Source: a virus. From it: a DNA stretch of 64,000 nucleotides. Shown here piece after piece: positions 2,891 through 38,999 of this stretch. A program made the translations under genes and the position numbers. The stretch lies in the IMG/VR virus record IMGVR_UViG_3300045988_175328, positions 64,001-128,000 of that record, one strand, 5' to 3'. Below the pieces are notes generated by a model. That model did not search any database and was not told where the DNA came from. It saw only the letters and a program-made list of their open reading frames with translations. Numbering within the stretch: position 1 is the stretch's first letter; the number at the start of each line of letters is the position of its first letter.

Positions 2891-5800
2891 GTGTATTCAT
2901 TTAAAAGCGAAATTTTAAAAGATTTACCAGGCATTTTTGTCGAAGTTAACTCTGCTCGTAAAAAGTTATACGACGACAGCCAATTCGGTAAAACAGATGC
3001 TGTATTGTGTATCGGTACTGCTTTTGACGGCCCTAATGGCTTCCCTGTACCAATCTACGATCCATCTTACGCTGTATATACATATGGCGATACTTATGAC
3101 CGCCGCACAAAACGAGAAGTTGACTTAGTTGCAACTATCTCTGACGCATATAATAATGGTTGTCGTACAATTTATGGCTTCCGTATCGGCGGCAAAGAAG
3201 CATATAAAGATTTTGCTTTCCGTGATGACAAAGCGATGTACCTTCGTGTAAAATCTACTTTCCCATCCAATAAAGCAAAACAAGTATACTTCACATTCGA
3301 TAATACTCCTGGTGAAGAAAAAATTACAATCTACAAACCAGTTTCCAAAGCAAGCTTGTATGAAAAATATAATGCATTGATCGACGAAACAACTGAAGTA
3401 ATCAAAGTTGATATCAACCTTGGTTTCTCTGGTGCTGGTTTTAATTCTAATACACAATTAACTGAAGTGTTACGTTATGTAAATCGTCATGTGTTAAATA
3501 ACGTTCTTGTTCTTTCTATCGTAAATGATGAAGGTCAAGATATCACACTTCGTAACGACTCTTATGATTTAGCCCTTGGGTCTTTATTCCCAGGAACTTA
3601 CTTCATTGGTCGTAGTCATTCTTTAGTTCCAATTCGTACTGAAGTTCGTACTCATATCATTAAAGGTGAAAACGCAATTAAACCTTATGATTCTTATGAT
3701 GGCGTATACTTCACTGCATTACGAATCAATACTGATGTATCTTCTCGTTACCCAATTTATGCAGGTTCCGATAAAGAAATGAACGAAGTATTGACTAAAG
3801 TTGGTATTAAAATGTTGTCTCATAACGACTATCTTGAATCTCCAATGCTTTCTAATTTAGCGTTCGCAGAAGACGAAGTCGATTATGAAGAAACAAACAT
3901 GACTAACTTCGAAAAATATGTTCGTCTTGGTTCTGGTTTTGCTATTACAGCAACAGCACATAAACGTACTAACACTAAAGGAGAAGAATTAGTTCCTCGT
4001 GTTAAAGAAACAGTAGCTAAAGATCCTCGTTATGTTGTTGGTATTAAAGATGGTGCATATAGCTTACTTCAAAATGCTGATATGCCTTATCGTGTACTAG
4101 GCGCTCAAATTGCTGCAGATACAGTAATTGGCGGCCGCTTACCAAAACCTAAAGATTTCTTACGTGCATTTGCTCAAGAAGTTTCTGTATTTAATTCTGT
4201 ACAAAATGGAGCTGTTGTTCCTAATACAGAATTAATTTCTATTACTCCTAAAGTAGATAGCATGGATACAAAAACATCTGCTCGTAAATTTAAATTTACA
4301 TTTAATAAAATTAAAGACGTAGAAAAAATTGTTCCATCCGCTATTTTCTCTAATGAAGTATTCACATATGTTCCAGTTGTAGATAATAAAGAAGCTTTAA
4401 TGCTTGACAAAAAAGTTTACAAAACTGGACAAGTATTCTTCATTAAAGATGAACAAAAAGTTGTAACAGTAACTGCTGAAAATAAACTTGAAGAGTTCGT
4501 CTCCAAAAATCAAAAATTCAAACACTTTGTTGCTGGCGACAAAATTATTGAATCTTTTGTATTAGGTGAAGATGTTCACTTTAAAGAAGTGGCAGATTTA
4601 TCTGGATTACAATATGATACAGACACTACAGGTATTTTAAAAGACGTTGATTCTACTGCAGGTTTATATTATGTAACTCGTGCAGCAGCTGCAACAGGAA
4701 CACCTATCAATGCAAAATATGTATTGATGACTGTAAATGGTGTATTAACTGTTGCGTCCTATGAAGATGGCAAAGTAACTCCTATCGGTAACTATGACAT
4801 CATCATGGATAAAGATACTCGTGATGATAAAGTAATCGCTTACATCGAAAACTTCGATAACGTAGAAAATAAAGTTGCAATCAGTGTTACTGATTATAAC
4901 TATCGTACATTATCTGAATTTGTAAGCGACTTAAAAGAAAATAAAACATTCTCTCGTTTATTTGATATCAAATTAACAGATAATGGCGTCATTGAAAAAG
5001 ATACTTTAATCGAAGATATCTTAGAACCAGTATTGAAAGATACAGAATTAGTATTGGGCGAGCTTCCTGCTCATAAAGTAATTGATTACGATTACTCTTT
5101 ACGTATTCCTTACCGTACTTCTGATAACTTTGCTCGCCAATTGGCACAACATTGTTTGAATACAGAAATGCGTACAGCTCATACTCATGGCCTTATCGGC
5201 GCAGAACGTATCTCTGATTATACATTATCTGGTGTTGCTCAAAAAGTTGAAGCATTAAAAACATTGTCTTTAGGCTTAAACTTAAAACGTGAAAACGGTC
5301 GAGCAGTTATCGATGATGACGGAATGCCAGTAAACATTGGTGGATCCATTTCCATGGTGTTCATGCAAAACAATGTACCAGTATTTAATTCTACATATTC
5401 TTATGTAGGTAATGGTGGTTCTGCATATGCTGGTTTAGTATCTGCATTAGATGTAGAACAATCCCCAACTAACCAAAAATTAAAAGCAACTCCATTGTTT
5501 GATTTAACAACGGCACAATTATCCGACTTAACAGCTCGCGGCATAGTAACAGCTAAAAATACATATACTCGTGGATATGTAATTACTGATGGTTGCACTA
5601 TGGCTGATAGCTCTGATCCTATGTCTCGTTTAAATACAGTTCGTATTATCGATGCTGTAGAACGAGTAATTCGTGAAGTTTGTGAACCATTCATTGGTAA
5701 ACAAAATAAAATTTCCGTACGTAATGCTATTCAAACTGGATTAACTTCTCGTTTGAATGAATTGAAAGGCAAATTATTGTACGATTATACATTCGATATT

Positions 5801-5926
5801 GTTAATGACGTAGAAGTGTTACAATACACTTACATCGATATCAACTATGTAATCATGCCGTACAACGAAATTCGTCAAATCAATAACTACATTCAAGTAC
5901 GTCAACCGGGCGCAATCGCTCATTAA
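2891..5926 (+). CDS. contractile tail sheath protein (large, 1011 aa)
   Basis: GTG start after AAAGGAAATG. The C-terminal ~150 aa (GYVITDGCTMADSSDPMSRLNTVRIIDAVERVIREVCEPFIGKQN ... INYVIMPYNEIRQINNYIQV) has the pattern of sheath C-terminal domains. The gene is followed by a terminator and the tube-like gene, which is the canonical sheath-tube order. Confidence 0.75.
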   Translation: MYSFKSEILKDLPGIFVEVNSARKKLYDDSQFGKTDAVLCIGTAFDGPNGFPVPIYDPSYAVYTYGDTYDRRTKREVDLVATISDAYNNGCRTIYGFRIGGKEAYKDFAFRDDKAMYLRVKSTFPSNKAKQVYFTFDNTPGEEKITIYKPVSKASLYEKYNALIDETTEVIKVDINLGFSGAGFNSNTQLTEVLRYVNRHVLNNVLVLSIVNDEGQDITLRNDSYDLALGSLFPGTYFIGRSHSLVPIRTEVRTHIIKGENAIKPYDSYDGVYFTALRINTDVSSRYPIYAGSDKEMNEVLTKVGIKMLSHNDYLESPMLSNLAFAEDEVDYEETNMTNFEKYVRLGSGFAITATAHKRTNTKGEELVPRVKETVAKDPRYVVGIKDGAYSLLQNADMPYRVLGAQIAADTVIGGRLPKPKDFLRAFAQEVSVFNSVQNGAVVPNTELISITPKVDSMDTKTSARKFKFTFNKIKDVEKIVPSAIFSNEVFTYVPVVDNKEALMLDKKVYKTGQVFFIKDEQKVVTVTAENKLEEFVSKNQKFKHFVAGDKIIESFVLGEDVHFKEVADLSGLQYDTDTTGILKDVDSTAGLYYVTRAAAATGTPINAKYVLMTVNGVLTVASYEDGKVTPIGNYDIIMDKDTRDDKVIAYIENFDNVENKVAISVTDYNYRTLSEFVSDLKENKTFSRLFDIKLTDNGVIEKDTLIEDILEPVLKDTELVLGELPAHKVIDYDYSLRIPYRTSDNFARQLAQHCLNTEMRTAHTHGLIGAERISDYTLSGVAQKVEALKTLSLGLNLKRENGRAVIDDDGMPVNIGGSISMVFMQNNVPVFNSTYSYVGNGGSAYAGLVSALDVEQSPTNQKLKATPLFDLTTAQLSDLTARGIVTAKNTYTRGYVITDGCTMADSSDPMSRLNTVRIIDAVERVIREVCEPFIGKQNKISVRNAIQTGLTSRLNELKGKLLYDYTFDIVNDVEVLQYTYIDINYVIMPYNEIRQINNYIQVRQPGAIAH

Positions 5927-6003: not shown

Positions 6004-6474
6004 ATGGAATTAGGTATCAATTTTAGATATGATAGCAAAAGGCGTGCGGCACTTATCTTAGTTTTTGATCGAGAGAGACTATTGCTTAAAGCAATTAGTG
6101 TTTTAAGAAAAAAACTACAGATTCCTTATCGAGAACTCGGAAAAACTAAAGATGGATTATTTTATGTTAAATATAAAGGAATGCTCGCTGCTTATATATA
6201 CTGGTGGATACATCGTATATTTAAAGCAGAATCTGCTAAAGAACACTATCCTTTATTTAAAGAAATATTCCTTCAAGATTTCGAGGGAGAATTGCCATAC
6301 GAAGAACTTCTTGCTTTAACTAATTCAGTCGAAACAGATGAACAAATAACGATCGGTGTTCCATCTGACTCGACGCTAACATGGTGTAAACGTATCCAGA
6401 GATGGCTACCGTTTAAAACTAGAATAGCATCGAGAACAGGAAAGAAAAAAGAGTATTTCCTGCTTTTAAAATAA
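6004..6474 (+). CDS. free-standing, N-terminally shorter paralog of the intron ORF at 6883 (degenerate LAGLIDADG-like endonuclease or maturase?)
   Basis: 156 aa. It aligns to the 6883-7497 product: AALILVFDRERLLLKAISVLRKKL vs SLLILDLVYHSKDVLESIKKIFKEKL; AAYIYWWIH vs AKIIFWWLYH; LPFKTRIASRTGKKKEYFLL vs LSFKTQPVTHTKGKRKHYQLY. It lacks the first ~35 aa of the paralog. Confidence 0.5.
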   Translation: MELGINFRYDSKRRAALILVFDRERLLLKAISVLRKKLQIPYRELGKTKDGLFYVKYKGMLAAYIYWWIHRIFKAESAKEHYPLFKEIFLQDFEGELPYEELLALTNSVETDEQITIGVPSDSTLTWCKRIQRWLPFKTRIASRTGKKKEYFLLLK

Positions 6475-6528: not shown

Positions 6529-6686
6529 ATGGCATATCAAAATGACACTAGTGTAACAAGTGCATCTCAATACACTCGTTCTTACACTACTTTCTCTGGC
6601 TGTGATATCGTTGCAACTTTCGGATCCGAAGTTGTAGCTGAAGTACAAGGTATTACAGTTTCTATCAACCGTGAGAAAGCTCCGGT
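6529..6686 (+). CDS. tail tube-like protein, exon 1 of 4
   Basis: MAYQNDTSVTSASQYTRSYTTFSGCDIVATFGSEVVAEVQGITVSINREKAPV aligns to the N-terminus of the uninterrupted paralog at 11429 (SKYTRTYNSYSGCDIVAS...HQEKTPV). The frame hits a stop 4 codons past 6686. The exon end CTCCGGT pairs with an internal guide at 6727-6733. Confidence 0.7.
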
Positions 6687-7529
6687 CAACAAACATTTTT
6701 GATATATGCTGAATCAAAACCTATAGGCCGGAGTAAAACTTTGCTAAAATCGGTGAAAGAGCACTAACACCGAGGATAAGAATATGATATAATAATATTG
6801 TGTTCAATGTCCGTAGAGACTTGAGACACTATTCTCTTAATGATGTATCCATTCCCAGCTAGGGAAATAACGGAGGTTTTTAATGAATGAAGTACTTGCT
6901 TGGTATTTAGGACTTAGTTACCAAGAAGATCAGTATCCAAGAAGTGTTGCCAGTGATTTACATAGTTATTTTATTCGCGGATTAGTTGAACAACTTAATC
7001 CATTTTATTATCGTGAAAAACGATCACTACTTATTTTGGATCTCGTATATCATTCAAAAGATGTTTTAGAATCGATAAAGAAAATTTTCAAAGAAAAATT
7101 ATTAATCGATTCTAAAGTTAAAGAGCTCGATAATAAATATATTTTAAATGTTTCTGGAAAGAATGCTAAAATTATTTTCTGGTGGTTATATCATGAAGAT
7201 TTTAGTACAAGTTATTCAGAAGAAATAGTAAATATATTAACAGATAAAGAAATAACTGATTTAAATAATATGAGCGACGACGATTCCTTACTTGAATTAA
7301 TCGGCGCTTATTATTCTGAAGATAATCATATTTCTTTTAATTGTCCTTATTATGAATCATTAGATCTAGCTAAAAAAGTAAGAAATTTACTTTCGTTTAA
7401 AACACAACCAGTGACTCATACAAAAGGAAAAAGAAAACATTATCAGCTTTATATTCCAAAAAACCAATCATTAATACGCAAAGCATCGAATGAGTAATCA
7501 TTCGTAAAGATATAGTCCACTTAATTGGG
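6687..7529 (+). ncRNA. group I intron 1 of the tube gene (ORF-containing)
   Basis: P1: exon CTCCGGT (6680-6686) pairs with GCCGGAG (6727-6733), with a U-G wobble at T6686. P10: TATAG (6722-6726) pairs with TTATA (7530-7534). AAGATATAGTC (7507-7517) matches the group I J8/7-P7 consensus seen in Tetrahymena and phage introns. The last nucleotide, G7529, is a candidate omega-G. Removal keeps the reading frame (GT + T = Val). Confidence 0.65.
6883..7497 (+). CDS. intron-encoded protein, degenerate double-motif LAGLIDADG-like (homing endonuclease or maturase?)
   Basis: 204 aa with a GGAGG RBS. Two LAGLIDADG-like helices: AWYLGLSYQED and LLELIGAYYSEDNHISF. It sits in a peripheral loop of intron 1. 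TGATATAAT (6785-6793) upstream looks like an extended -10. Confidence 0.5.
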   Translation: MNEVLAWYLGLSYQEDQYPRSVASDLHSYFIRGLVEQLNPFYYREKRSLLILDLVYHSKDVLESIKKIFKEKLLIDSKVKELDNKYILNVSGKNAKIIFWWLYHEDFSTSYSEEIVNILTDKEITDLNNMSDDDSLLELIGAYYSEDNHISFNCPYYESLDLAKKVRNLLSFKTQPVTHTKGKRKHYQLYIPKNQSLIRKASNE

Positions 7530-7572
7530 TTATACATTTGGTTCAGCTGAGCCTCGTTCTATCTCGAGAGGT
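7530..7572 (+). CDS. tail tube-like protein, 43-nt micro-exon 2 of 4
   Basis: Encodes (V)YTFGSAEPRSISRG. This fills exactly the gap between exon 1 and exon 3 relative to both paralogs (RAIGNVNAITYVDG in the 11429 ORF; FGYNSYIFDEMALG in the 14787 ORF). It is flanked by a predicted 3' splice site (after G7529) and a 5' splice site (after U7572). Confidence 0.65.
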
Positions 7573-7678
7573 AATAATAACTCTTTTGCTTCTCCTTTGC
7601 AGTAATGCAACGCATAATTAAACTCTGTGATTAAATGTGCTATACATACTTACAACTTAAGTCATGAGTAAGTAGCAC

Positions 7679-8070
7679 GTATAGTCCACATATCTGGTAA
7701 CAGGTATGTGCCAAGTGGTAACACTCGGAGATTCACTGAATTGCTGGAAAGTCCTAAAGCTTGAATAACTACAACATAATATCGTACAAGTACGATATAA
7801 GCGTGAATGTTGCGAAAGCAGAAAAAATATTCAAGATGGTATATGGTTAAATCCTAAGTACTGTAGCAATGGACAATCAGCAGCCAAGCCCGTAAGGGAA
7901 GGTTCAACGACTATCCTGAGAAGGAGTAGGGCTCAAGCGAGTGGGTGAAAATCCCTTAAATCGAAGTAGTGAAGGTCCTTTAGAAAAGGATTAAGATATA
8001 GTCTGTGCTTTATCGAAAGATAAAGGTGCGCGCAGTGGCGCCGGCTAAGAGTAGCGATCTTAGTTGAACG
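7679..8070 (+). ncRNA. group I (IA2, phage-type) ribozyme core A
   Basis: GTATAGTCCA guide-like element, then two GTAA-tetraloop hairpins (7689-7712, 7713-7730). P4 TTGCTGG (7741-7747) pairs with CAGCA. CAGCAGCCAAGCCC resembles Tetrahymena P4'-P6. P7 GACTA (7909-7913) pairs with TAGTC inside AAGATATAGTC (7993-8003). P9 hairpin CTTTATCgaaaGATAAAG. Long identical blocks are shared with the introns at 10552 and 38331. Confidence 0.75.
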
Positions 8071-8104
8071 AACAACTCTCATATAAACCCTACGGTTTTA
8101 TATA

Positions 8105-8133
8105 TTGAAATTAACCTCCTAAAGTACTATAAT
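8105..8133 (+). promoter_or_regulatory. sigma-A/sigma-70 type promoter for tnpB, inside the intron
   Basis: TTGAAA (8105-8110), 17-nt spacer, TATAAT (8128-8133). AAAGGAGGTG RBS at 8151-8160 and GTG start at 8165. Confidence 0.6.
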
Positions 8134-8164
8134 AATAGTATATAGTTACGAAAGGAGGTGCCTC

Positions 8165-9253
8165 GTGAATAAAAGTTTTAAAGTAGAAATTTATCCAGAT
8201 CAAGATCAGGAAATTTTAATTGAGAAAACATTTGGCTGCGTAAGATATACTTACAATTTTATGTTAAATTTAAAACAACTTCTGTATAAAGAATTTGGAA
8301 TATCAATAACTTTAAATAGGATATCCAAAGTTCTTACGATGCTAAAAAAACTTAAGCCATGGCTTGCAGAAGTTGATAAATGTGCATTGCAATATGTTCT
8401 CAAAGATCTTTTTTTTGGATATGAAAAATTCTTTAATGGCGGAGGATTTCCTGAATTTAAAACTAAACGAGGGAAGAATTCTTATCGTACAAATAGTCGT
8501 TTACATTTAGATCAAGATAAAAAGATGATTAAGATCCCTAAAGTCGGCTGGATTAAGTTTAGAGATAAAAGTAAATTTATTGGTCTTAAAAAGATTTACA
8601 ATATCACTATTTCTAAAAGTGCTAGTGGAAAATATTTTGCCAGTATTTCAGCCGAAGTCGAAATCGAAGCTTTGCCTAAAACCAAAGTAAACTGCGGTAT
8701 CGACTTAGGATTAAAAGATTTTTGTATCTTGAACGATGGAACAGTATTTGAGAATCCTAAATTTTTGGCAAGTAAAGAAAAACGACTCAAAAGGTTACAA
8801 AAGTCTTTAAATCGAAAGAAACTAGGATCTAAGAATTATTTTAAAGTTAAAGCTAAAATAGTTAGACTTCATGAATATATAGCAAATTGTCGAAAAGATT
8901 ATCTGCACAAAATATCTATATTCTTAGTTAGAACTTATGATATTATTTGTGTTGAAACTCTAAAAGTTAAGAATATGCTTAAGAATCATAAGTTAGCTAA
9001 AGCTATTATTGACGTTAGTTGGTATGAATTTTGTCGACAGTTAGAATATAAATGTTTATGGTATGGAAAGAAATTTGTACAGATTGGGACTTATTTCGCA
9101 TCATCACAAACATGCTCTAATTGTGGCTTCAAGAATATAGAAGTTAAGAATCTTGATGTTCGAGAATGGAATTGTCCAGAATGTGGAGTTCATCACGATC
9201 GAGATATTAACGCAGCTATAAATATTCTCAACGAAGGCTTAAAATTAGCTTAA
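8165..9253 (+). CDS. tnpB: TnpB (IS200/IS605-family OrfB RNA-guided endonuclease); no tnpA present
   Basis: 362 aa. Ruv[12 protein letters not shown], Ruv[14 protein letters not shown], zinc ribbon CSNCGF...CPECG, Ruv[15 protein letters not shown]. All three catalytic acidic residues appear intact. Confidence 0.9.
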
Positions 9254-9384
9254 TTTCAATATATAGAACCGCAGGGCATGCGGGGATAGCCTACTGTCTT
9301 AGTATAAGACGTATAGTGAATTTATATTTACTATACGCAACTATTGGGTAGGAACCTCGTCACTTTAAGTGGTGAGAGGATGTC
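9254..9384 (+). ncRNA. candidate TnpB omega RNA scaffold (may start inside the tnpB 3' end); boundaries uncertain
   Basis: Densely structured RNA directly after tnpB. Hairpins: CCGCA/TGCGG (9269-9283), GTCTTA/TAAGAC (9296-9310) and GTATAGTGAA/TTACTATAC (9311-9336). The last two are enclosed by CCTAC (9290-9294) pairing with GTAGG (9348-9352). Omega RNAs are known to lie at this position in IS605-type elements. Confidence 0.4.
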
Positions 9385-9552
9385 AGATGCTGGAAACCCC
9401 TTAGAGCCTTTGGTACCAAAGTGTGACAATCTAAAGGATTGGGCAATCAGCAGGCAGCTTTATCTATTAGATATTGCGCCTCAACGACTATCCGTAAGGA
9501 GTACACCATAATAGCCGGTGGAAGCGCAGAGCTCCCTAGAATAATATAGGTA

Positions 9553-9581
9553 TTGCTATATTCTCCTTTTTGTATTATAAT
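9553..9581 (+). promoter_or_regulatory. sigma-A/sigma-70 type promoter for the LAGLIDADG gene, inside the intron
   Basis: TTGCTA (9553-9558), 17-nt spacer, TATAAT (9576-9581). AAGGAGG RBS at 9591-9597 and ATG at 9605. Confidence 0.6.
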
Positions 9582-9604
9582 AAATATATAAGGAGGTCTT
9601 AAAT

Positions 9605-10264
9605 ATGGCGCAATACAATTATAATTTTGATATTTTAGAAAAAGAATCACCTGAAAAATATTATTTTCTTGGCTTTATCGCAGCAGATGGAGCATTAACA
9701 AATGGCGGAATTGTTTTTGAACTAAACAAGAGAGATGGATATATGGTAAAGAAATTAAATGATTACATATGTCCTGAAAAAGAAGTTAAGTTTAGAGAAG
9801 AAACAAATTCTTGTCGAGCAACATTTTATAATCTTGAAATGACAAAGAAACTAAAAAAATATTTTTCAATGACAAGCAATAGAAAAACCGAAGAGATTAG
9901 ATTCCCAGAAGTACCAGATGAATATCTTCGAGATTTTATTCGTGGGATCATCGATGGTGATGGAACTATCGATACGACTAAAGGATACAAAGGAAATAAA
10001 ATTTATATTGGTGCTCGACTTCGAATCTTAGGTAATGAAATTTTTCTAAAAGAATTAAATGAGAAAACAAAATTATTATATCCACATAATACAAATGCTG
10101 TAAACAGAAAAGGTAAGGAAAATATACATATTATAACTTATAACTTTAAAACAGCGCGCGAATTATTGAAAATAATATATTATGACGGATGCCTATGTTT
10201 AAAACGAAAATTCGATCGTTCTAGGGATGAAGATATAGTCTCTACATTAGTGAGAGCTAAATGA
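9605..10264 (+). CDS. LAGLIDADG homing endonuclease (double-motif)
   Basis: 219 aa. Motif 1 YYFLGFIAADGAL, motif 2 FIRGIIDGDGTID. The 3' end overlaps the ribozyme J8/7-P7 segment, as is typical of intron-encoded endonucleases. Confidence 0.85.
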   Translation: MAQYNYNFDILEKESPEKYYFLGFIAADGALTNGGIVFELNKRDGYMVKKLNDYICPEKEVKFREETNSCRATFYNLEMTKKLKKYFSMTSNRKTEEIRFPEVPDEYLRDFIRGIIDGDGTIDTTKGYKGNKIYIGARLRILGNEIFLKELNEKTKLLYPHNTNAVNRKGKENIHIITYNFKTARELLKIIYYDGCLCLKRKFDRSRDEDIVSTLVRAK

Positions 10265-10278
10265 TAATCATTCTCAAA

Positions 10279-10551
10279 AAAAGAGGGATCGCCGGCACTA
10301 TTGTATTCACACTATTTGATCGTGATGCATTAGTCGACGCATTGGCTATTCGCGCAGCAAAAGCTGCGTATTTCCAACGTATTGGTGGTGATATCAATTA
10401 CCAACCATACACAATTACTGAATGGGATACTAAATTGACAGATATGGTAGTTAATACTTTATCTTCCAGTAACAGTTCCCAAATTGCATCCAGTAATCCA
10501 TTTAAACTTACTCAAAAAGTAGCTGTTCAATCTACTCCTAAATACTCCGAT
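10279..10551 (+). CDS. tail tube-like protein, exon 3 of 4
   Basis: KRGIAGTIVFTLFDRDALVDAL...STPKYSD aligns to PRTIAGTIVFTVLDKHVIYEIF...HYLMD of the 11429 paralog. The 5' boundary comes from guide complementarity and the paralog alignment. The 3' boundary is U10551, wobble-paired with G10565. Confidence 0.65.
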
Positions 10552-10935
10552 TATTCTTAATATAGTCCGTATGTTTAGTAATAAGCATATGTTAAACATA
10601 AATGTTTAAGGTCTCATCGAATTGCTGAAAACCCGTAAAGCTTAAAACGCTACAGCATAATTTTGAAAAACAAATAAGTGCGATAGTAACGAAAGTAAAA
10701 AAAGTTTTAAGATAGCGTATGGTTAAATCCTAAGCGCCACAACAATTGGCAATCAGCAGCGAAGCTCCAAATAGGAGAACGTTCAACGACTAGAGCAAGA
10801 TGCTCGTACACTCAAGCGAGTGGAAGTGGTGAGGGCCCATTTGATGGGTCAAGATATAGTCTATGCCTTAGTGAAAATTAAGGGAGCAACAATTTGTTGC
10901 CAAATAATAGTAGCGATATTATTTGAATATAACAG
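10552..10935 (+). ncRNA. group I (IA2) intron 3 of the tube gene, ORF-less
   Basis: P1: GAT|TAT (10549-10554) pairs with ATAGTC (10562-10567), with U10551-G10565. P2 is TATGTTTAgtaaTAAGCATA and P2.1 is TTAAACAtaaaTGTTTAA. Conserved blocks GAATTGCTG, GGTTAAATCCTAAG, GGCAATCAGCAGCGAAGC and GTTCAACGACTAG are present, plus AAGATATAGTC (10851-10861). It ends ...AACAG at G10935. Removal joins D|E in frame. Confidence 0.8.
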
Positions 10936-11145
10936 GAAATTCCGCCATTTGACATTACTTTATCTTTTGCAAATGAGTATGGTCAATCGGCAGTAATGGT
11001 TATCTACGGCGTAGAGATCTTAAATGAAGCTTCTAGTTTCTCTGTAGATTCTACTACGACTGATAAAGCATGTACTTACATTGCTCGTTCTGTAGATTAC
11101 TTGCAACCAGTAGAAAACAAATACTTATTGAATAACAATTACTAA
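10936..11145 (+). CDS. tail tube-like protein, exon 4 of 4 (includes the stop)
   Basis: EIPPFDITLSFANEYGQSAVMVIYGVEILNEASSFSVD... aligns to ELPNFDITLSFANEYGHNSSISIYNCTIMDEGQVMSVND of the paralog. An in-frame TAA lies 2 codons upstream of 10936. TAA stop at 11143-11145. Confidence 0.75.
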   Translation, partial: EIPPFDITLSFANEYGQSAVMVIYGVEILNEASSFSVDSTTTDKACTYIARSVDYLQPVENKYLLNNNY

Positions 11146-11195: not shown

Positions 11196-11432
11196 TTGGA
11201 AAATACGAATCAAGTCTTTCTGTATCTAAACAAAGTTTTAGATGATTATATTAAAGAAGCTGTTCAACGAAGAGTTTCTTTAGACGAAGCTAATCTTGAG
11301 ATGAAAGAAGTTTGTCTTAAAGAATTAGAGCAAAGATCAATAGAGCTTAAACCACATATAAAAACACTTGTTGAAAATAGAGTTAAACAATATCTTAAAG
11401 TCTACCACTTAAAAGTGAGGTATTTAAAATGA
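11196..11432 (+). CDS. small hypothetical protein
   Basis: 78-aa ORF with a TTG start after GAGG. Its stop overlaps the next ATG (ATGA). Confidence 0.5.
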   Translation: MENTNQVFLYLNKVLDDYIKEAVQRRVSLDEANLEMKEVCLKELEQRSIELKPHIKTLVENRVKQYLKVYHLKVRYLK

Positions 11433-13132
11433 CACAAGAAAAAGAGATTGTTCAAACTTCTAAATACACAAGAACATACAATTCATATAGTGGATGCGAT
11501 ATTGTAGCTTCTATTAATATTTCAATACCAGGGCAAGAACCTATTCATCATGTGTTCGGCAGCATTCAAACACTTTCTTATAGCATCCATCAGGAGAAAA
11601 CTCCAGTTAGAGCAATCGGGAATGTAAATGCAATTACGTATGTAGATGGGCCCAGAACAATTGCTGGCACTATTGTATTTACAGTTTTAGATAAGCATGT
11701 AATATATGAAATTTTTGAAGAATTAACAAAGAAGGGGCAATATATCAATGAACATTATTTAATGGACGAGCTCCCTAATTTTGACATTACTTTATCTTTT
11801 GCAAATGAATATGGCCATAATAGTTCTATCAGTATATATAATTGCACTATTATGGATGAAGGACAAGTCATGTCTGTTAATGATATTTTGACAGAAAATA
11901 CATATCATTATTATGCGACTGATATTGACTACATGACTGAATCTGAAAGCTATTGGACAATTAATCGTCAAAAGATTATTGAATCAAATCCTTGGCTTAG
12001 TCCTCAGAACTTTAAACCGCAACCACAGGTTCCGGCAAAAGAAATAGACGATTGCCCATTAGAAAAAATTAGTCGATATAAGTATCGAACATATGCTGAA
12101 TATGTTACTGCTTTAAATAAGGCATACGAAAAACATCGAGATGAATTAGTTGAAGCGCAGAAGACTGATCGTATTGTAGCTTGTCGTCATAAGTATCATA
12201 CTCTTGTCGAAGATGCTAAAAAATATTATAAAATTGGCGATATGCCATATGGATTAAATAGAATTCCTAAACGAAGACCAGCTGTTGTCAATAAAGATTA
12301 CGATAAATTCAGAACACAAATTCGTAAAACTTCAAGAGCTGTTCCTGATTATGACAACTGTAGAGTTAGAAAACATACTGGTCCAATCCAGGCGCCAGAT
12401 TTTAATATAAGAACATCTCGTACTTATAATAGAATTATAATTCCAGATTTAAATATGCCGCGATTAAGATATAATTCATATCGTGACTATCCAGAATTTG
12501 AGAGTCGAGAACGATATGAATCATCTAGAAGCTATCCTGAATTTAGATCTAGGAATTATAAAAAATTCTCGACACGAGGATACCCTATATATAAAACTAA
12601 TTATGCTAAGCATTATAGAGAAGATCCTCCAGAATTTAATTCTAGACTTCGACCTCAAAAATATAAAGTTAATGTCCCGGAATACGAGACTCATAAAAGA
12701 AGAAAAGTCGATATTATGGTCCCAGAATTTGAATCAAGAAAGGCTCCTGAAAGAAAAAGAGAAGGATATCCTGAGTATACAACTCAATATCCAGAGCATA
12801 GAAAAATTGTTCCTCCAGAATTTCCAAGAGTTAGGAATTTAAGAGATAGAGTCCATGATTATGTTCCTGATGAAATTATCGATAGAAACCATGACCATGA
12901 CAATAAACCAATTTTTAAAAATAGAAAACGAGAAAAAATTATCGAGAAAGAAAAAGAAATACATAAAAAGCCAGAAATTAAAGAAAAAAAACGTTTAGAT
13001 TTTGTTCTTAAGAAAAAAGATTCTAGTATGGTGATTGAAGAAGTCAAGAAAGAAGAAACTAAGCCTAAAGACAAATTTAGAATTCGTTCTGTTATCGAAA
13101 AGAACGCAACACCAGATCGAGGTGATAGCTAA
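11429..13132 (+). CDS. tube-fold paralog with a long basic repeat-rich C-terminal extension
   Basis: 567 aa. The N-terminal ~170 aa is homologous to the split tube gene. The rest is Arg/Lys/Pro/Glu-rich with P-E-F/Y-x-S/T-R repeats and a Lys-rich tail. Confidence 0.7.
   Translation: MTQEKEIVQTSKYTRTYNSYSGCDIVASINISIPGQEPIHHVFGSIQTLSYSIHQEKTPVRAIGNVNAITYVDGPRTIAGTIVFTVLDKHVIYEIFEELTKKGQYINEHYLMDELPNFDITLSFANEYGHNSSISIYNCTIMDEGQVMSVNDILTENTYHYYATDIDYMTESESYWTINRQKIIESNPWLSPQNFKPQPQVPAKEIDDCPLEKISRYKYRTYAEYVTALNKAYEKHRDELVEAQKTDRIVACRHKYHTLVEDAKKYYKIGDMPYGLNRIPKRRPAVVNKDYDKFRTQIRKTSRAVPDYDNCRVRKHTGPIQAPDFNIRTSRTYNRIIIPDLNMPRLRYNSYRDYPEFESRERYESSRSYPEFRSRNYKKFSTRGYPIYKTNYAKHYREDPPEFNSRLRPQKYKVNVPEYETHKRRKVDIMVPEFESRKAPERKREGYPEYTTQYPEHRKIVPPEFPRVRNLRDRVHDYVPDEIIDRNHDHDNKPIFKNRKREKIIEKEKEIHKKPEIKEKKRLDFVLKKKDSSMVIEEVKKEETKPKDKFRIRSVIEKNATPDRGDS
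12485..12835 (+). repeat. coding tandem-like repeats (YPEFESR-type, about 7 copies)
   Basis: YPEFESR, YPEFRSR, PPEFNSR, VPEYETH, VPEFESR, YPEYTTQ, PPEFPRV. At DNA level the string CCAGAATTT / CCTGAATTT recurs. Confidence 0.7.
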
Positions 13133-33284: not shown

Positions 33285-36200
33285 ATGGCAGAAGATAATA
33301 ACAATAATGATGCATATAGAAGGCATCATATATCTACAAGTGGGCCACAAGGGTCTGTAAAACCTGATTTAGAAAAACTTAATAATCAGCGGCATCATAT
33401 TGTAGAAAAAACTCCTTCTCTGAAAATTAAAACAGATAATCCATACAAAAGACATCATGTTCCAGAACCTCTTCCTGGAGAAATAGAGAACAATCCATTT
33501 GAAGAAGCTTTTCATAAAAGACATCACAATCTAGAAGAAGCAAGAAAAGATAATTATAATAGACGTAATCATTTAGGTGCTTATTCAGAGAGAAACGAAA
33601 TGAGCACTTCAGATAATAATGAAGTAAATAGTGAAACTTCTGCAACTGAAAAAGAGAAGAAATCTTCTGAAGACGCATTTACTAGACATCATGTAAAAAA
33701 AGATGATACTGTTTATGGTACTAACTCTTCAACCAATACTGCTTCAAATCAAAGTATTGATTCCAAAGGCGACAAAAAAGAAGATAAGAAAAAAGACAAA
33801 AAACCTTTCTGGGAAACTTATAAAAGAGTTGGTGAACGTGGAGGATGGGATGGTTCTGACGAGCAATTTAAAAAAATTGTTGACGAATCTAAAATAGGAT
33901 TGCCACAAATTGAAGATTTTTTAAAAAATCAGATTTTAGATCCAGCTATTTATGATCAAAGTTTAACAGTCGATAATCCTGATGATGCGACCTTCTACAC
34001 AGAAAACCCTCCGGAGAAAGATGGCTTTGATTCTTCTAAGTCTATTTTAACAATGACTGTGAATAAGGATGCATTCTATTATAGCGGCAGTCCTTCTACT
34101 CAAGGACTTGATGATCCAATTTTTACTGGCGCAGTCGATGGCGATACCATCAAATTTGACTTCAAAAAAACTGGTGTTAAGGATCCTCAAATTATTGAAT
34201 ATATAGATTTATCTCGCAAAAAGATGATCAGTTTTTTTGCTGACAAATTTAAAACAAGCAATGAAAAAATCGAATCAATGTTTGATAGTATCAATGAAGA
34301 TGCCATGGGTATTCGTTTCTTATTTTTTGACGCGCCTGAAGTTTTGCATATAAAATATGAAAAAGTAGAAGAATTTAAGGAAATGACATTTCAAGAAGCG
34401 TCTACATATAAGGCAATCATGTGTAAATATACATGTAAAGATCCTGGCACATTTGAAAAATGGGAACCATTAGATGCAAATGAAAAGTATTGGTTTGCCT
34501 ATAAGAATAGAAGATACTATCAAGTTTGCGATTGGTACCAAGATTATGCTCAAAAAAATAGTAATAAACAACCGTCATATTCTAATGGATCTTCTGCATA
34601 TCTTATTAAACAAAATGATACAGATATATTAAGTATTGCTGACGGATATTTAGGATCACGTCTTGTAAGTACAATGTTTCAAAAAGCAACAGCGGCTAAA
34701 TTAGTGGTTGATTTAAACTTTTCCGAAAAACAAGATACTATGTCAGGCTATCCACGAAGAGCTGATTATAGTTCATTTGATAATGAGCTAGTTCGTAATT
34801 TTATCAATGGACTATATCTTGGTATCGAAGGAAAGCAAGATACTATATTTGAAGAAGCAGGCGTCAATGCTTATGGTATGGAACATTACCGCCGCTTACT
34901 TTCTATTATTTATTTAAAAGTTGATGGCAAATGGATTAATCTTAATAAGTATGTAATTTCTAAATTAAAATATGCGTCTCTTTTAAAATATAGTGGTAGT
35001 GCAAATCCTTCTTTAAAAGCTTACTCTTATGAGCACGATACAAAAGTATGGGCAGATAGAGTTTGGAAATCTATTGAGAAATTTGACAATCGTCATGAGG
35101 TTCAACGAAAAGCATTTGGTCGTGGAGATATTTCTGAAAGTTTGAAATCTATTAGAGATTGGACTTTAACATTAGGTGATGTAACATTATTTGTTCCTCC
35201 TGTTTCTATTAAAACAGTGTCTCAATCTAATTATCCAAAATCCCCAATCTTACGATCTAAAGGTTCTGCGGTATTTAATTCATATACCGAAGATAAGATG
35301 CTTCAGATCGAATGTTTCTTTAATGAAGATAGAGGAATTAATGGTGCCCCTGTTACATTAAAAACAAATAAAAGTAACAAGGCCAAAGAAGTTACTTATC
35401 ATATTAATGGTGTTCGTTCTTTATTGTCTCAATTCCAATTTGCTCCCTATATCCCAATCGAGAATAAATATGTGAATGAAGTGCTTGGAATGGATGCTGT
35501 TATTTTTGATAGTTTCTCTATTGAGACTGTAGCTAATTATCCTAAATTGCTTCATGTTACATTATTATTGCGCGAGTTTAATCATCACGCTTTCATGCCG
35601 CAAGTTCCAAATGCAAGATTACTAAGCGATTTAGAAGTAGATTATCGAAATTTCTTCGCCAAAACAATTAATTATGATTTATTTCGTTGGTATTATCAAC
35701 AACCATTACTTCTTGGGAACAAATTAAAAGACGAGAAACTTCCAGTATATTCAAAAGAGTTTATGAAACAAACTCTATTCGCTAATAAATCTGCTTATTT
35801 CCCAGTCGATACATTAGATCCGACTATATCTATTTTTGCTCCTAATGAAAGCAAAATTAATCTTTTAGAAAAATCTAGAAATCGATATAATCGACAAAAT
35901 AAAAAGAATCCAGTACTATATACTCCATCTGATGCTGATAAGAAATTATTTGAAAAGCTAGATGGATTATGGCGAAATATTTTGTCGTATCAATATGATG
36001 AAACTTTAACAGTTGATAATTATGAAACATTTGCTCAGAAATTTACTTCATATCTTGATGGCAAAGGTTATCTTACTTTCAATGATGGCATTCAGTATAA
36101 TGATCATCCTTACTCAAATCAACTTTCTGAAAAGATGCCATTTGGACCTGTTGGCGAAAAAGGCGAACGAATTCCATTTTTGCAAATAAGAGTTCGATTG

Positions 36201-38330: not shown

Positions 38331-38999
38331 TAAAATCTCAAACTAACACTCCTGACTTTTAGTCATGAGATACAGTTTTGGAAACTAGTAAGGATGTTGG
38401 GAAACTAGCATCTAGTGGCGGGTTAAATCCGTCCAACAAAGACACTGAATTGCTGGGAACCCCTAAAGCTCAAAGTGCCTTGATGGTCACGAAAGTAGAA
38501 ATAAATCTTTGAGATAGTATACGGTTAAATCCTAAGTACTAAGTGACAATGGGCAATCAGCAGCGAAGCCGGATCTATTTTTAAACCGGAACGTTCAACG
38601 ACTAGACCTCTTGAGGGTCGTACACCGTAAGCGATTGACGGTGGAAGTGGTGTCGCCTAAGTTAAGCAGATAGTGCTTAATATGGATAAGATATAGTCTG
38701 TGCTTGTATGAAAATACAAGGTGCGGGTAGTGCCGCCGGTTAGAAAGTAGCGTTTCTAGCTGAATGAGGCTTCACAAAACGTGGTTCTAAAAAATGCCCT
38801 TAAAATATAGATATTTTACAGAAAATATGCTATACTATATTTGTTAAAAGTAAGGCTGTAGATCGAAAGATCTTATGCTGTAGAGGCGACCTGGGCACGC
38901 CTAAAAGAATAAGGGGTTCTTAGAGATCCAAACTTCTTAATAGAGAAACTTTTTTATGGCTCTCTTAGAACCACGTGATTTTAATCATGTGAAGCTCAG
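38331..38999 (+). ncRNA. group I (IA2) intron between the 1682-aa and 1897-aa ORFs
   Basis: The core is homologous to 7735-8070 and 10620-10935: CACTGAATTGCTGGG, GGTTAAATCCTAAG, GGCAATCAGCAGCGAAGC, GTTCAACGACTAG and AAGATATAGTC at 38689-38699. P1: AT|TAAAA (38329-38335) pairs with TTTTAGT (38357-38363), with U38330-G38362. The 3' end ...TCAG (G38999) is homologous to ...AACAG of the 10552 intron. Confidence 0.7.

What the first reader, a model, noticed from the sequence alone, without database searches (positions are those of the whole stretch)
7573..10278. IStron-like composite inside a phage structural gene: two ribozyme cores, promoter-driven TnpB with a candidate omega RNA, and a promoter-driven LAGLIDADG endonuclease
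Seen in sequence, in order between the micro-exon and exon 3:
- a P1/P10 guide (7581-7594)
- a full IA2 core (7679-8070)
- a hairpin ATATAAA/TTTTATAT (8081-8103)
- TTGAAA-17-TATAAT and then tnpB with intact RuvC D/E/D residues and a zinc ribbon (8165-9253)
- ~130 nt of nested hairpins (9254-9384)
- a second full core (9385-9560, plus P7' at 10230-10240) containing TTGCTA-17-TATAAT and a double-motif LAGLIDADG gene
Established knowledge: IStrons (a group I intron fused to an IS200/IS605- or IS607-type element carrying tnpB) are known from Clostridioides difficile, the Bacillus cereus group and Clostridium botulinum. TnpB uses a transposon-end omega RNA as its guide.
Inference: this stacks two different homing systems in one intron of an essential phage gene, an RNA-guided TnpB and a protein endonuclease. 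It may be a twintron or a tandem fusion. I am not aware of such an arrangement having been described. A 9-nt direct repeat ACGTATAGT (7677-7685 and 9309-9317) brackets the core-A + tnpB + structured-RNA unit and may mark its insertion borders.
Basis: partly seen in the sequence, partly recalled or inferred. Interest (0 to 1): 0.9.

Follow-up and report, generated by a model that had tools for sequence, protein, structure and literature searches.

The report
IStron nested inside a phage intron
A self-splicing transposon carrying an RNA-guided nuclease (an IStron) has inserted into the catalytic core of a second self-splicing intron that carries its own homing endonuclease, all inside a jumbo phage tail-tube gene, so two selfish elements are stacked and probably have to splice out in order.

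Summary
It is not two full cores in tandem. It is a twintron.

- **Inner element (7632-9386):** an IS605-type IStron with a complete group I ribozyme (Rfam 82.6 bits), a promoter, tnpB with an intact RuvC triad and zinc ribbon, and a conserved omega-RNA scaffold. It starts right after GTGAT, a TTGAT-like motif, and ends in TCAG.
- **Outer element (7573-7631 plus 9387-10278):** a group I intron with a LAGLIDADG gene in its P8 loop. The IStron splits its J3/4 junction.
- **Empty site:** the predicted IStron-free junction CTCTGTGAT|ATGCTGGAAAC occurs exactly in 29 related phage contigs at the same tube-gene position. IStron-free, ORF-free copies score 67-68 bits as complete group I introns.
- **Filled site:** the twintron allele is near-identical (one gap in one contig) in five independent metagenome contigs. 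It was not found in the three scanned collections.
- **TnpB target:** the 16-20 nt after the IStron's right end are the outer intron's own J3/4-P4/P5 sequence. TnpB would therefore target IStron-free copies of that intron, not the intron-less tube gene.
- **Unexplained:** the outer intron ends in A, not the usual terminal G, here and in 14 of 27 relatives.

Verdict: a new variant of known kinds. Ordered splicing and both nuclease activities are inferred, not shown.

The parts
6529..6686 (+). Tail-tube gene exon 1 (ends ..GCTCCGGT|)
   Evidence: Protein alignment with intron-less tube proteins of Bacillus phages WH1, KLEB27-3 and 0305phi8-36 and Moorella phage MTATph1. Relatives without intron 1 read GCTCCGGTTTACACATTTGG continuously.
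7530..7572 (+). Micro-exon of 43 nt (T TAT ACA ... AGA GGT), ending in the U of the outer intron's 5' splice site
7573..7631 (+). 5' part of the outer group I intron: P10/P1 guide 7581-7594, P2 hairpin 7597-7610, P3 5' strand CUCUGUG 7623-7629. GTGAT 7627-7631 serves as the transposon-adjacent motif (TAM) for the IStron.
   Evidence: This segment is continuous with 9387 onward in 29 contigs. The Rfam alignment of IStron-free relatives assigns these helices. Coordinates.
7632..9386 (+). Inner IStron, IS605-type with tnpB only, 1755 nt. It starts TAAATGTGCTATAC and ends GAGAGGATGTCAG.
   Evidence: The left border is shared with independent copies whose flanks differ and end in NYGAT. The right border is shared by 26 or more copies that diverge immediately after TCAG.
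7684..8025 (+). Ribozyme core of the IStron (P2-P9). Conserved P9 extensions run to about 8081.
   Evidence: Rfam RF00028, 82.6 bits, full model 1-253. Conservation.
8076..8081 (+). 5' arm (CUCUCA) of the closing stem. It pairs with UGAGAG 9373-9378 and brings the IStron 3' splice site to the ribozyme.
   Evidence: The stem covaries across family members: CATCCTCTC/GAGAGGATG, ATATCCTTTT/AAAAGGATAT, CATCTTTT/AAAAGATG. Coordinates.
8105..8133 (+). Promoter-like TTGAAA-17-TATAAT upstream of tnpB
   Evidence: TATATATTGAAATTA and the -10 region are near-invariant in other copies.
8165..9253 (+). tnpB, 362 aa, GTG start
   Evidence: Pfam. PDB ISDra2 TnpB E 4e-97. Catalytic and zinc residues. PHROG 506 at 8e-128.
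9253..9386 (+). Omega-RNA scaffold, which is also the transposon right end. Its 3' stem CCUC..GAGG overlaps the closing-stem arm.
   Evidence: Homology to right ends of TnpB loci. Of 14 consensus pairs, 8 show compensatory changes. Fold -42.5 kcal/mol, z -4.4. The 5' limit is not determined.
9387..9402 (+). Predicted guide of the omega RNA (AUGCUGGAAACCCCUU), which is J3/4-P4/P5 of the outer intron
   Evidence: Position immediately 3' of the right end. The same 20 nt follow GTGAT in all 29 empty sites. The guide length of about 16 nt is assumed by analogy with ISDra2.
9387..10278 (+). 3' part of the outer group I intron: P4-P6 9388-9480, P7 5' strand within 9482-9490, P3 3' strand CGCAGAG 9525-9531, P8 arms 9533-9539 and 10221-10227, P7 3' strand 10231-10240, P9. 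It ends ..CUCAAA.
   Evidence: Rfam fragments. Full-length matches in IStron-free, ORF-free relatives. Coordinates.
9553..9581 (+). Promoter-like TTGCTA-17-TATAAT for the endonuclease gene. The ribosome-binding site AAGGAGG follows.
   Evidence: Conserved in all ORF-bearing relatives, including diverged ones.
9605..10264 (+). Double-motif LAGLIDADG-type homing endonuclease gene (219 aa) in the P8 loop. Its 3' end overlaps P8', P7' and P9.
   Evidence: PHROG 4645 'endonuclease' at 5e-31. Pfam LAGLIDADG_3 in 8 of 8 family members, best 2e-6; the window protein scores 20.2 bits against a cut-off of 22.5. PDB 2dch at E 0.004. Nine relatives have the same intron without this ORF.
10279..10551 (+). 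Tail-tube exon 3 (AAAAGAGGG ... TCCGAT|)

Best explanation
The region is a group I twintron.

**Outer intron.** An ancestral group I intron with a LAGLIDADG homing endonuclease gene in P8 sits at GGT|AAA of the tail-tube gene.

**Inner IStron.** An IS605-type IStron (ribozyme, tnpB and omega RNA, no tnpA) later inserted into that intron's J3/4 junction, 3' of GTGAT.

**Inferred order of events in RNA**
1. The IStron ribozyme pairs its guide GUCAU with GUGAU and cuts after U7631.
2. A closing stem (8076-8081 with 9373-9378) brings the TCAG 3' end to the ribozyme. The flanks are ligated to give CUCUGUGAU|AUGCUGGAAAC.
3. This restores J3/4, P4 and the P3 pairing of the outer ribozyme.
4. The outer ribozyme then splices GAGAGGU|AAAAGAGGG and restores the tube reading frame.

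**Inferred events at the DNA level**
- The LAGLIDADG enzyme would drive the outer intron into intron-less tube alleles.
- TnpB with its omega RNA would cut IStron-free copies of the outer intron, at the motif GTGAT followed by ATGCTGGAAACCCCTT. Repair from the filled copy would then spread or retain the IStron.
- The omega-RNA 3' stem and the closing stem use the same nucleotides. Guide-RNA formation and IStron splicing should therefore compete, as published for IStrons, and this competition would also gate tube-protein production.

The architecture, the borders and the order of insertion are shown here. Splicing order, both nuclease activities and the competition are inferred.
For: - **Borders.** The left border is shared by independent IStron copies whose flanks differ (ATGAT, CTGAT, TTGAT, TCGAT, GTGAT). 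The right border is shared by at least 26 copies ending GATGTCAG, with unrelated flanks.
- **Empty site.** The 20-mer CTCTGTGATATGCTGGAAAC predicted by deleting 7632-9386 is found exactly in 29 IMG/VR contigs, at the same place in the same gene, with no target duplication.
- **Outer core.** IStron-free, ORF-free relatives are complete RF00028 matches (67-68 bits). P3 is ACUCUGUG/UGCAGAGC and J3/4 spans the insertion point. In the window only fragments score.
- **Outer splice sites.** Supported by protein alignment, by intron-less alleles TCGAGAGGT|AAACGCGG, and by P10 covariation with the 3' exon.
- **Inner parts look intact.** Ribozyme 82.6 bits. TnpB 334 bits to ISDra2-like TnpB with the catalytic triad. 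Omega-RNA covariation. Closing-stem covariation.
- **No self-targeting.** The only near-match to motif plus target in the window is the filled site itself, where TCAG replaces TGAT.
- **Not an assembly artefact.** The twintron is 100% identical in four ENA contigs and 99.96% (one gap) in a fifth, one of them 227 kb long.
- **Gene is in use.** Exon 3 is under purifying selection.
- **Match to published IStrons.** TTGAT/TTTAT targets, TCAG end, closing stem, no duplication (PMC4227781). TTGAT motif, omega RNA in the tnpB 3' UTR and conflict with splicing (10.1101/2023.11.20.567912).
Against: - There are no RNA data. Neither splicing step, the intermediate, nor the omega RNA has been observed.
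- The outer intron ends in A, not the terminal G expected of group I introns, so its second splicing step is mechanistically unexplained.
- The motif here is GTGAT, not TTGAT. Tolerance at the first position is inferred only from the flanks of other copies.
- No tnpA lies in the element, so how it first reached this site is unknown. It could have arrived by transposition with TnpA supplied in trans, or by recombination.
- The IStron's P1 is short, at 5 base pairs.
- The nearest TnpB relatives in IMG/VR are only 74% identical, so the donor lineage is unsampled.
Confidence: 0.8

Rival explanations
1. The two introns form a tandem fusion or a recombination chimera. Crossover at the conserved AATTGCTGGAAA core sequence would leave core A plus tnpB joined to the 3' two-thirds of a second intron, and the composite would be removed as one unit.
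For: Core B has no P1-P3 of its own next to it. IA2-type cores share long identical stretches.
Against: - Deleting exactly 7632-9386 gives a junction present in 29 contigs.
- The missing P1, P2 and P3 strand of core B lie at 7573-7631 and are collinear with those contigs.
- The unit's ends are those of many independent IStron and IS copies.
Confidence: 0.03
2. The whole 2.7 kb is removed in one step. The IStron ribozyme (core A) uses the outer P1/P10 guide at 7581-7594 as its substrate helix and splices GGU|AAAAGAG directly, so the outer core is never rebuilt.
For: - The outer P1 lies only about 90 nt upstream of core A.
- Both ribozymes are of the same subgroup, with near-identical J4/5, J8/7 and P7 sequences.
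- The outer 3' splice site lacks a terminal G whichever core uses it.
Against: - Core A has its own P1 with the motif and its own TCAG 3' end with a covarying closing stem.
- The outer core segments remain intact and nearly identical to functional relatives.
- Nothing positions the distant 3' splice site at core A.
Confidence: 0.1
3. The insertion is a recent dead end. The IStron has inactivated the outer intron and hence the tube gene, and the phage is defective or relies on the tube paralogue at 11429-13132.
For: - The outer intron has no terminal G.
- The filled allele was not found in IMG/VR, the metagenome collection or the genome collection.
- A tube paralogue lies next to the gene.
Against: - Every ORF and RNA part is intact.
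- The same allele occurs in five independent assemblies from at least two projects, one of them a 227-kb contig.
- The exons are conserved.
- The paralogue is also present in phages with an uninterrupted tube gene, so it is not a replacement.
Confidence: 0.07

Closest known systems
IS605-family ('group A') IStrons: CdISt1 / CdiIStron of Clostridioides difficile and relatives (Braun 2000; Tourasse 2014, PMC4227781; Zedaveinyte 2023, 10.1101/2023.11.20.567912)
   Same: - Group I ribozyme at the 5' end, then tnpB, with the omega RNA in the 3' UTR.
- Insertion 3' of a TTGAT-like pentanucleotide.
- The element ends in TCAG.
- No target duplication.
- A short closing stem encloses the ORF region.
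- tnpA is often missing.
   Different: - The host is a jumbo phage.
- TnpB is closer to ISDra2 TnpB (E 4e-97).
- The 'exons' it interrupts are not a gene but the J3/4 junction of another group I ribozyme.
- Its guide therefore matches a ribozyme core.
IS607-family ('group B') IStrons in Clostridium botulinum phages c-st and D-1873 (CbISt3, CbISt4; PMC4227781)
   Same: These are IStrons carried by phage genomes. The c-st TnpB is 48% identical to this one.
   Different: Group B elements insert after GG, end in CGG and go with a serine TnpA. The element here has an NYGAT motif and a TCAG end. The c-st locus I fetched gave no group I match.
ISDra2 TnpB with its omega RNA (PDB 8bf8, 8ex9, 8h1j)
   Same: Same domain order, the same D/E/D triad and zinc ribbon, a TTGAT-type motif, and a guide taken from the DNA flanking the right end.
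   Different: ISDra2 is a plain IS with TnpA and no ribozyme. The scaffold sequence here is shared only with Firmicute and phage relatives. Activity is untested.
Group I twintrons and twin-ribozyme introns (fungal mitochondrial group I-in-group I twintrons; the Didymium twin-ribozyme intron), from my own knowledge
   Same: One group I element lies inside another, and a homing endonuclease gene is present.
   Different: - Those are eukaryotic, and none carries a transposon-type RNA-guided nuclease.
- Here the inner element is a DNA transposon that splits the catalytic junction J3/4.
- My searches of the held library found no phage or IStron twintron.
Multi-intron phage structural genes, for example the three-intron orf142 of Staphylococcus phage Twort (from my own knowledge)
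   Same: Several IA2-type self-splicing introns lie in one late gene. Core A is 78% identical over 176 nt to an unannotated stretch of Staphylococcus phage phiIPLA-RODI.
   Different: Those introns sit side by side, separated by exons, and none is nested or carries tnpB.

Membership tests
IStron (IS605-type, group A) | A group I ribozyme occupies the 5' part of the element | tested here: met
   RF00028 at 82.6 bits, full model, 7684-8025.
IStron (IS605-type, group A) | An IS200/IS605 tnpB (orfB) lies downstream within the same borders | tested here: met
   Pfam OrfB_IS605, HTH_OrfB_IS605 and Cas12f1-like_TNB. The intron-tnpB spacing and spacer sequence are shared with other copies.
IStron (IS605-type, group A) | Inserted 3' of a TTGAT/TTTAT-like pentanucleotide, ends in TCAG, and makes no target duplication | tested here: met
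   GTGAT|TAAATG... ...GTCAG|ATGC in the window. Flanks of other copies are NYGAT or NYTAT. All right ends finish in TCAG. The exact empty site has no duplication.
IStron (IS605-type, group A) | The element borders coincide with the splice sites, and the transcript is restored by self-splicing | not testable with these tools
   The border geometry fits: U before the 5' border, G as the last nucleotide, P1 GUGAU/GUCAU, and a covarying closing stem. No RNA data are available.
IStron (IS605-type, group A) | A tnpA transposase (tyrosine type) gives autonomous mobility | tested here: not met
   No ORF lies between the ribozyme and tnpB, which are separated by about 139 nt. This is also true of all 8 C. 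difficile 630 IStrons, so it does not exclude membership.
TnpB-omega RNA (OMEGA) nuclease | RuvC D/E/D triad and zinc ribbon | tested here: met
   D180/E264/D347 align to positions 191/278/361 in the ISDra2-like chain. The cysteines are C317, C320, C337 and C340.
TnpB-omega RNA (OMEGA) nuclease | A conserved structured scaffold at the right end, followed by a variable guide | tested here: met
   In alignment A4, 8 of 14 pairs show compensatory changes. The flanks diverge right after TCAG. No Rfam family matched this stretch at E up to 1.
TnpB-omega RNA (OMEGA) nuclease | RNA-guided cleavage of the motif-adjacent target | not testable with these tools
   The target GTGAT+ATGCTGGAAACCCCTTAGAG exists in 29 contigs.
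Group I intron (outer element) | Conserved core P3-P9 recognised by a covariance model | tested here: inconclusive
   In the window only fragments score: 26 bits (E 1.3e-3) and 30 bits (E 1e-4), because the core is split. Uninterrupted, ORF-free relatives score 67-68 bits full length, and the window's segments are collinear with them.
Group I intron (outer element) | The 5' exon ends in a U that forms a U-G pair in P1, and P10 pairs with the 3' exon | tested here: met
   GAGAGGU/GCUUCUC and CUCUUUU/AAAAGAG. P10 changes together with the exon codons in relatives.
Group I intron (outer element) | The last intron nucleotide is G (omega G) | tested here: not met
   The intron ends ..CUCAAA|AAAAGAGGG. 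It ends in A in 14 of 27 relatives and in G in 13.
LAGLIDADG homing endonuclease | Two LAGLIDADG motifs in one chain, and a match to family profiles | tested here: inconclusive
   - Motifs LGFIAADG (22-29) and IRGIIDGDG (112-120) are present.
- Pfam LAGLIDADG_3 scores 20.2 bits, below the 22.5 cut-off, for the window protein. It is hit by 8 of 8 family members, best 2e-6.
- PDB 2dch at E 0.004. PHROG 4645 'endonuclease' at 5e-31.
- The single-sequence structure model was unusable, with pLDDT 33.
Twintron | One intron lies inside another, and removing the inner one rebuilds the outer one | tested here: met
   This is shown at the DNA level. Sequential splicing itself could not be tested.

The most novel reading that the evidence does not exclude
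This is a working 'drive on a drive'. A TnpB guide RNA is programmed against the conserved catalytic core of another mobile intron, so the IStron spreads through the population of LAGLIDADG introns rather than through genes. Tail-tube synthesis would depend on strictly ordered double self-splicing, which TnpB and omega-RNA binding can throttle. In addition, the outer intron completes exon ligation without a terminal G, as half of its natural alleles seem to. That would be a natural exception to a rule held to be universal for group I introns.
Probability: 0.3. Interest if true: 0.85.

Novelty: new variant of a known kind. Interest (0 to 1): 0.66.

Why it matters
- IStrons, homing-endonuclease introns and twintrons are each known. 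I found no report of an IStron inside another self-splicing intron, or of a natural TnpB guide that matches a ribozyme core.
- If the inferred steps hold, an IS605-type element can use another ribozyme's core as a harmless landing site, because its own splicing repairs the damage.
- It would also be a natural three-layer system (gene, intron, IStron) for studying ordered ribozyme folding.
- It would link the published conflict between omega RNA and splicing to production of an essential virion protein.
- The 29 empty sites, the ORF-free intron copies and the intron-less alleles already give a graded series for experiments.
- The G-or-A polymorphism at the last intron nucleotide is a separate, directly testable puzzle for ribozyme chemistry.

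Tried and rejected
- **ACGTATAGT repeat as insertion borders.** Rejected. The borders are 7632 and 9386, IS605 elements make no duplication, and the 9-mer pair is weakly significant.
- **IS607-type (group B) IStron starting at GAGG|T 7572 and ending in CGG near 9283.** I considered this after reading PMC4227781. Rejected, because other copies share sequence only from 7632 and through to 9386.
- **Other splice registers for the outer intron that would give a terminal G.**
  - GGU|...GGG|AUC (window only) deletes the invariant K-R.
  - Using G10263 adds five residues and loses P10.
  - No register fits all alleles.
- **Other copies of the filled site.** The right-end junction 20-mer is absent from the viral, metagenome and genome collections. 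A degenerate left-end junction gave nothing in viral contigs and 8 unrelated chance hits in metagenomes. An exact-protein look-up then found the same allele in 5 ENA assemblies.
- **Rfam family for the omega RNA.** None at E up to 1.
- **Rfam sensitivity on related loci.** Rfam at gathering threshold flagged only 4 of about 20 IStron ribozymes. Motif scans and alignments showed the rest.
- **More distant TnpB loci.** Phages c-st, iF6, SPG24, P7574 and a Clostridioides phage share the right-end scaffold but gave no group I match.
- **Structure prediction of the endonuclease.** The single-sequence model had pLDDT 33, so I ran no fold search.
- **Other TnpB loci abutting a group I core.** None of the 47 loci does.

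Full report
**Context**

The window comes from a jumbo myovirus related to Bacillus phage 0305phi8-36 and its relatives.
- A 1011-aa sheath gene (2891-5926) is followed by a tail-tube gene whose conceptual product is 47-52% identical in the multiple alignment to the uninterrupted tube proteins of Bacillus phages vB_BceM_WH1 and KLEB27-3 and Moorella phage MTATph1.
- The tube gene is split into four exons: 6529-6686, 7530-7572, 10279-10551 and 10936-11145.
- The finding covers the middle interruption, 7573-10278.
- The junction ..SISRG|KRGIAG.. matches the invariant ..SRGKRGIAG.. of the homologues.
- It also matches three more distant viral contigs that read TCGAGAGGT|AAACGCGG without any insertion.

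**What is there**

| Feature | Coordinates | Evidence |
|---|---|---|
| Complete group I ribozyme (core A) | 7684-8025 | Rfam 82.6 bits, E 1.7e-19 |
| Group I fragments (core B) | 9388-9490; 10137-10262 | Model positions 60-148, 26 bits; 30 bits |
| tnpB | 8165-9253 | Three Pfam TnpB domains; ISDra2 TnpB E 4e-97 |
| Omega-RNA-like structured RNA | 9253-9386 | -42.5 kcal/mol, z -4.4 |
| LAGLIDADG-type gene | 9605-10264 | |

- In TnpB, D180, E264 and D347 lie on the positions numbered 191, 278 and 361 in the ISDra2-like chain. There are two CxxC pairs.
- The stretch after the tnpB stop is homologous to the sequence downstream of related tnpB genes in many phages.
- The LAGLIDADG ORF has two motifs. 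It hits PHROG 4645 'endonuclease' at 5e-31. Its Pfam LAGLIDADG_3 match is just below the cut-off but is shared by all eight family members tested. It also gives a weak match to the LAGLIDADG protein 2dch.
- Both promoter-like sites exist and are conserved in relatives.

**The borders of the inner element**

A scan of IMG/VR with the TnpB protein returned 47 loci, most 67-74% identical.
- About twenty have a group I ribozyme directly upstream of tnpB, at the same spacing as in the window. They form an IStron family in phage contigs.
- On the left, independent copies become alignable only from TAA[AG]TGTGCTAT. Their differing flanks end in ATGAT, CTGAT, TTGAT, TCGAT or GTGAT. A second subfamily has NYTAT.
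- On the right, at least 26 distinct copies end in ..GAGAGGATGTCAG and are unrelated immediately afterwards.
- In the window this gives 7632-9386, preceded by GTGAT (7627-7631) and ending in TCAG.
- These are the published hallmarks of IS605-type 'group A' IStrons: insertion after TTGAT, ATTAT or TTTAT, a TCAG end and no duplication (PMC4227781). The same paper series reports a TTGAT motif and an omega RNA in the tnpB 3' UTR (10.1101/2023.11.20.567912).
- The element has no tnpA, like all eight IStrons of C. difficile 630.

**The empty site**

Deleting 7632-9386 predicts the junction CTCTGTGAT|ATGCTGGAAAC.
- This exact 20-mer is present in 29 IMG/VR contigs. In each it sits at the same position of the same tube gene and is flanked by sequence collinear with 7573-7631 and 9387 onward.
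- Seventeen related loci carry the LAGLIDADG ORF, 63-90% identical. Nine have the same intron without any ORF, with P8 reduced to UCCCGAAAGGGA.
- Three of these ORF-free, IStron-free copies were scored against Rfam. Each is a complete RF00028 match at 67-68 bits.
- In that alignment P1 is UUCGAGAGGU../..GCUUCUCC, P3 is ACUCUGUG/UGCAGAGC, and J3/4 is the AUA spanning the insertion point.
- So 7573-7631 holds P1, P2 and the 5' strand of P3 of the outer intron, and 9387-10278 holds the rest. The IStron sits in J3/4. The order of events is clear: the endonuclease intron came first and the IStron second.
It also shows the ACGTATAGT repeat is not a border.

**Is the filled allele real?**

- Neither junction of the filled site occurs in IMG/VR, the metagenome collection or the species-genome collection. 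The only hits were chance matches.
- An exact-protein look-up found the same TnpB in contigs from five ENA assemblies. One is 227 kb long.
- The sequence is 100% identical across the overlapping part of 7500-10330 in four of them and 99.96% (one gap) in the fifth.
- The arrangement is therefore not an assembly chimera. It appears to be confined to one phage lineage.
- None of the other 47 TnpB loci has a right end that abuts a group I core.

**How it most likely works**

Shown:
- The architecture, the borders and the intact parts.
- Covariation in the omega-RNA scaffold, with 8 of 14 pairs showing compensatory changes.
- Covariation in a closing stem between the sequence just 3' of the ribozyme and the last nucleotides before TCAG. 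Examples are CATCCTCTC/GAGAGGATG, ATATCCTTTT/AAAAGGATAT and CATCTTTT/AAAAGATG. In the window it is CUCUCA 8076-8081 with UGAGAG 9373-9378.
- Covariation of the outer P10 with the first codons of exon 3: CACUUUUG with AAAAGAGG, CCGCGUUUG with AAACGCGG, and CUCUUUUG with AAAAGAG in the window.

Inferred:
1. The IStron ribozyme pairs GUCAU with GUGAU, cuts after U7631 and ligates to A9387.
2. That rebuilds J3/4 and P4 of the outer ribozyme.
3. The outer ribozyme then joins GAGAGGU to AAAAGAGGG.
4. An insertion of 1755 nt in J3/4, a junction in the catalytic core, makes inner-first splicing likely. It is not proven.
5. The omega-RNA 3' stem (CCUC..GAGG) and the closing stem share nucleotides 9373-9378. 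The published antagonism between guide-RNA formation and IStron splicing should therefore apply, and here it would also limit tube mRNA.

**What TnpB would cut**

- The nucleotides after the right end, AUGCUGGAAACCCCUUAGAG, are the outer intron's J3/4, P4 and P5.
- The same 20 nt follow GTGAT in all 29 empty sites.
- In the window the only near-match is the filled site itself, where TCAG stands in place of TGAT. This is the usual way IS605 elements avoid cutting themselves.
- The LAGLIDADG enzyme is the candidate for cutting the intron-less allele.
- The two systems therefore act at different levels of a nested hierarchy.

**An unexplained point**

With the 3' exon start fixed by three independent lines, the outer intron ends ..CAUUCUCAAA, with A rather than the terminal G expected of group I introns.
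- Among 27 complete relatives the last nucleotide is G in 13 and A in 14.
- A-ending alleles occur in 229-236 kb contigs.
- The first 50 codons of exon 3 (the stretch compared) show 778 synonymous against 14 non-synonymous codon differences among A-ending alleles.
- The P7 strands are unchanged.
- I found no splice register that gives both canonical ends and the conserved protein.
- This lowers confidence in the details of the second outer step, and it is interesting in its own right.

**Comparison and novelty**

- The inner element passes the testable defining features of an IS605-type IStron and of a TnpB-omega RNA locus. It is a new member of those kinds, in a large phage-borne family.
- The outer element is a group I intron with a homing endonuclease gene. 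One defining feature, the terminal G, is not met.
- What I did not find described is an IStron inside another self-splicing intron, or a TnpB guide matching a ribozyme core. I searched for twintron, group I and bacteriophage, for IStron and nested, and read two IStron papers and a review.
- Group I twintrons in fungal mitochondria, the Didymium twin-ribozyme intron and the multi-intron Twort gene are the nearest structural precedents, from my own knowledge.
- I rate this a new variant of a known kind, with interest about 0.66. It stays well above ordinary because of the nesting in a catalytic junction, the intron-directed guide, the ready-made allelic series, and the terminal-nucleotide puzzle.

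Noticed in passing
window 10264-10287; loci L074-L102: The outer intron's last nucleotide is A in the window and in 14 of 27 related contigs, and G in 13. The exon is under strong purifying selection in both groups. The A-ending tails belong to three different sequence contexts.
   Followed up: partly
window 6687-7529 (ORF 6883-7497) and 6004-6474: - Intron 1 of the tube gene has canonical ends (CCGGU|...GGG|U) and an AAGAUAUAGUCC motif at 7510, but no Rfam match at E up to 1.
- Its 204-aa ORF has no Pfam or PHROG hit. It is a paralogue (26% identity, E 2e-10) of the free-standing 156-aa ORF between the sheath and tube genes.
- Nine of 27 relatives lack intron 1, and others have different sequence at its 3' end.
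   Followed up: partly
window 10552-10935: Third tube-gene intron. It is an ORF-less group I intron (Rfam 73.9 bits) with canonical ends GAU|...ACAG|GAA.
   Followed up: partly
window about 38331-38998: - A group I intron (Rfam 72.4 bits at 38349-38720) lies between two giant ORFs (33285-38333 and 39054-44747).
- Its sequence resembles the second IStron subfamily. It starts after GTTAT with TAAAATC, appears to end in CTCAG, and carries a long inverted repeat (38768-38800 with 38960-38995) but no tnpB.
- It may be an ORF-less IStron derivative.
   Followed up: no
L081 and L096 (IMG/VR contigs 3300008664_000004 and 3300045988_138996): Exon 3 of the tube gene is interrupted again after ..RIGGD in these two relatives. 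This suggests a fourth intron site in the same gene.
   Followed up: no
L010-L056: - A large family of tnpB elements with the same right end occurs in IMG/VR phage contigs, with and without the ribozyme and often several per contig. For example, 3300006320_000011 has three.
- Contig 7000000286_000027 has two tnpB loci and also an IStron-free outer intron.
- Rfam at gathering threshold reported only 4 of about 20 ribozymes that motif scans and alignments show.
   Followed up: partly
window 11429-13132: A 567-aa tube paralogue has a tube-like N-terminal 180 aa and a long, repetitive, basic C-terminal extension (PEF/PEY..R repeats). Paralogues exist next to the tube gene in 0305phi8-36-like phages too.
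   Followed up: no
Only its 3' arm is conserved in other IStron copies, so the hairpin itself is probably not a conserved feature.
   Followed up: partly
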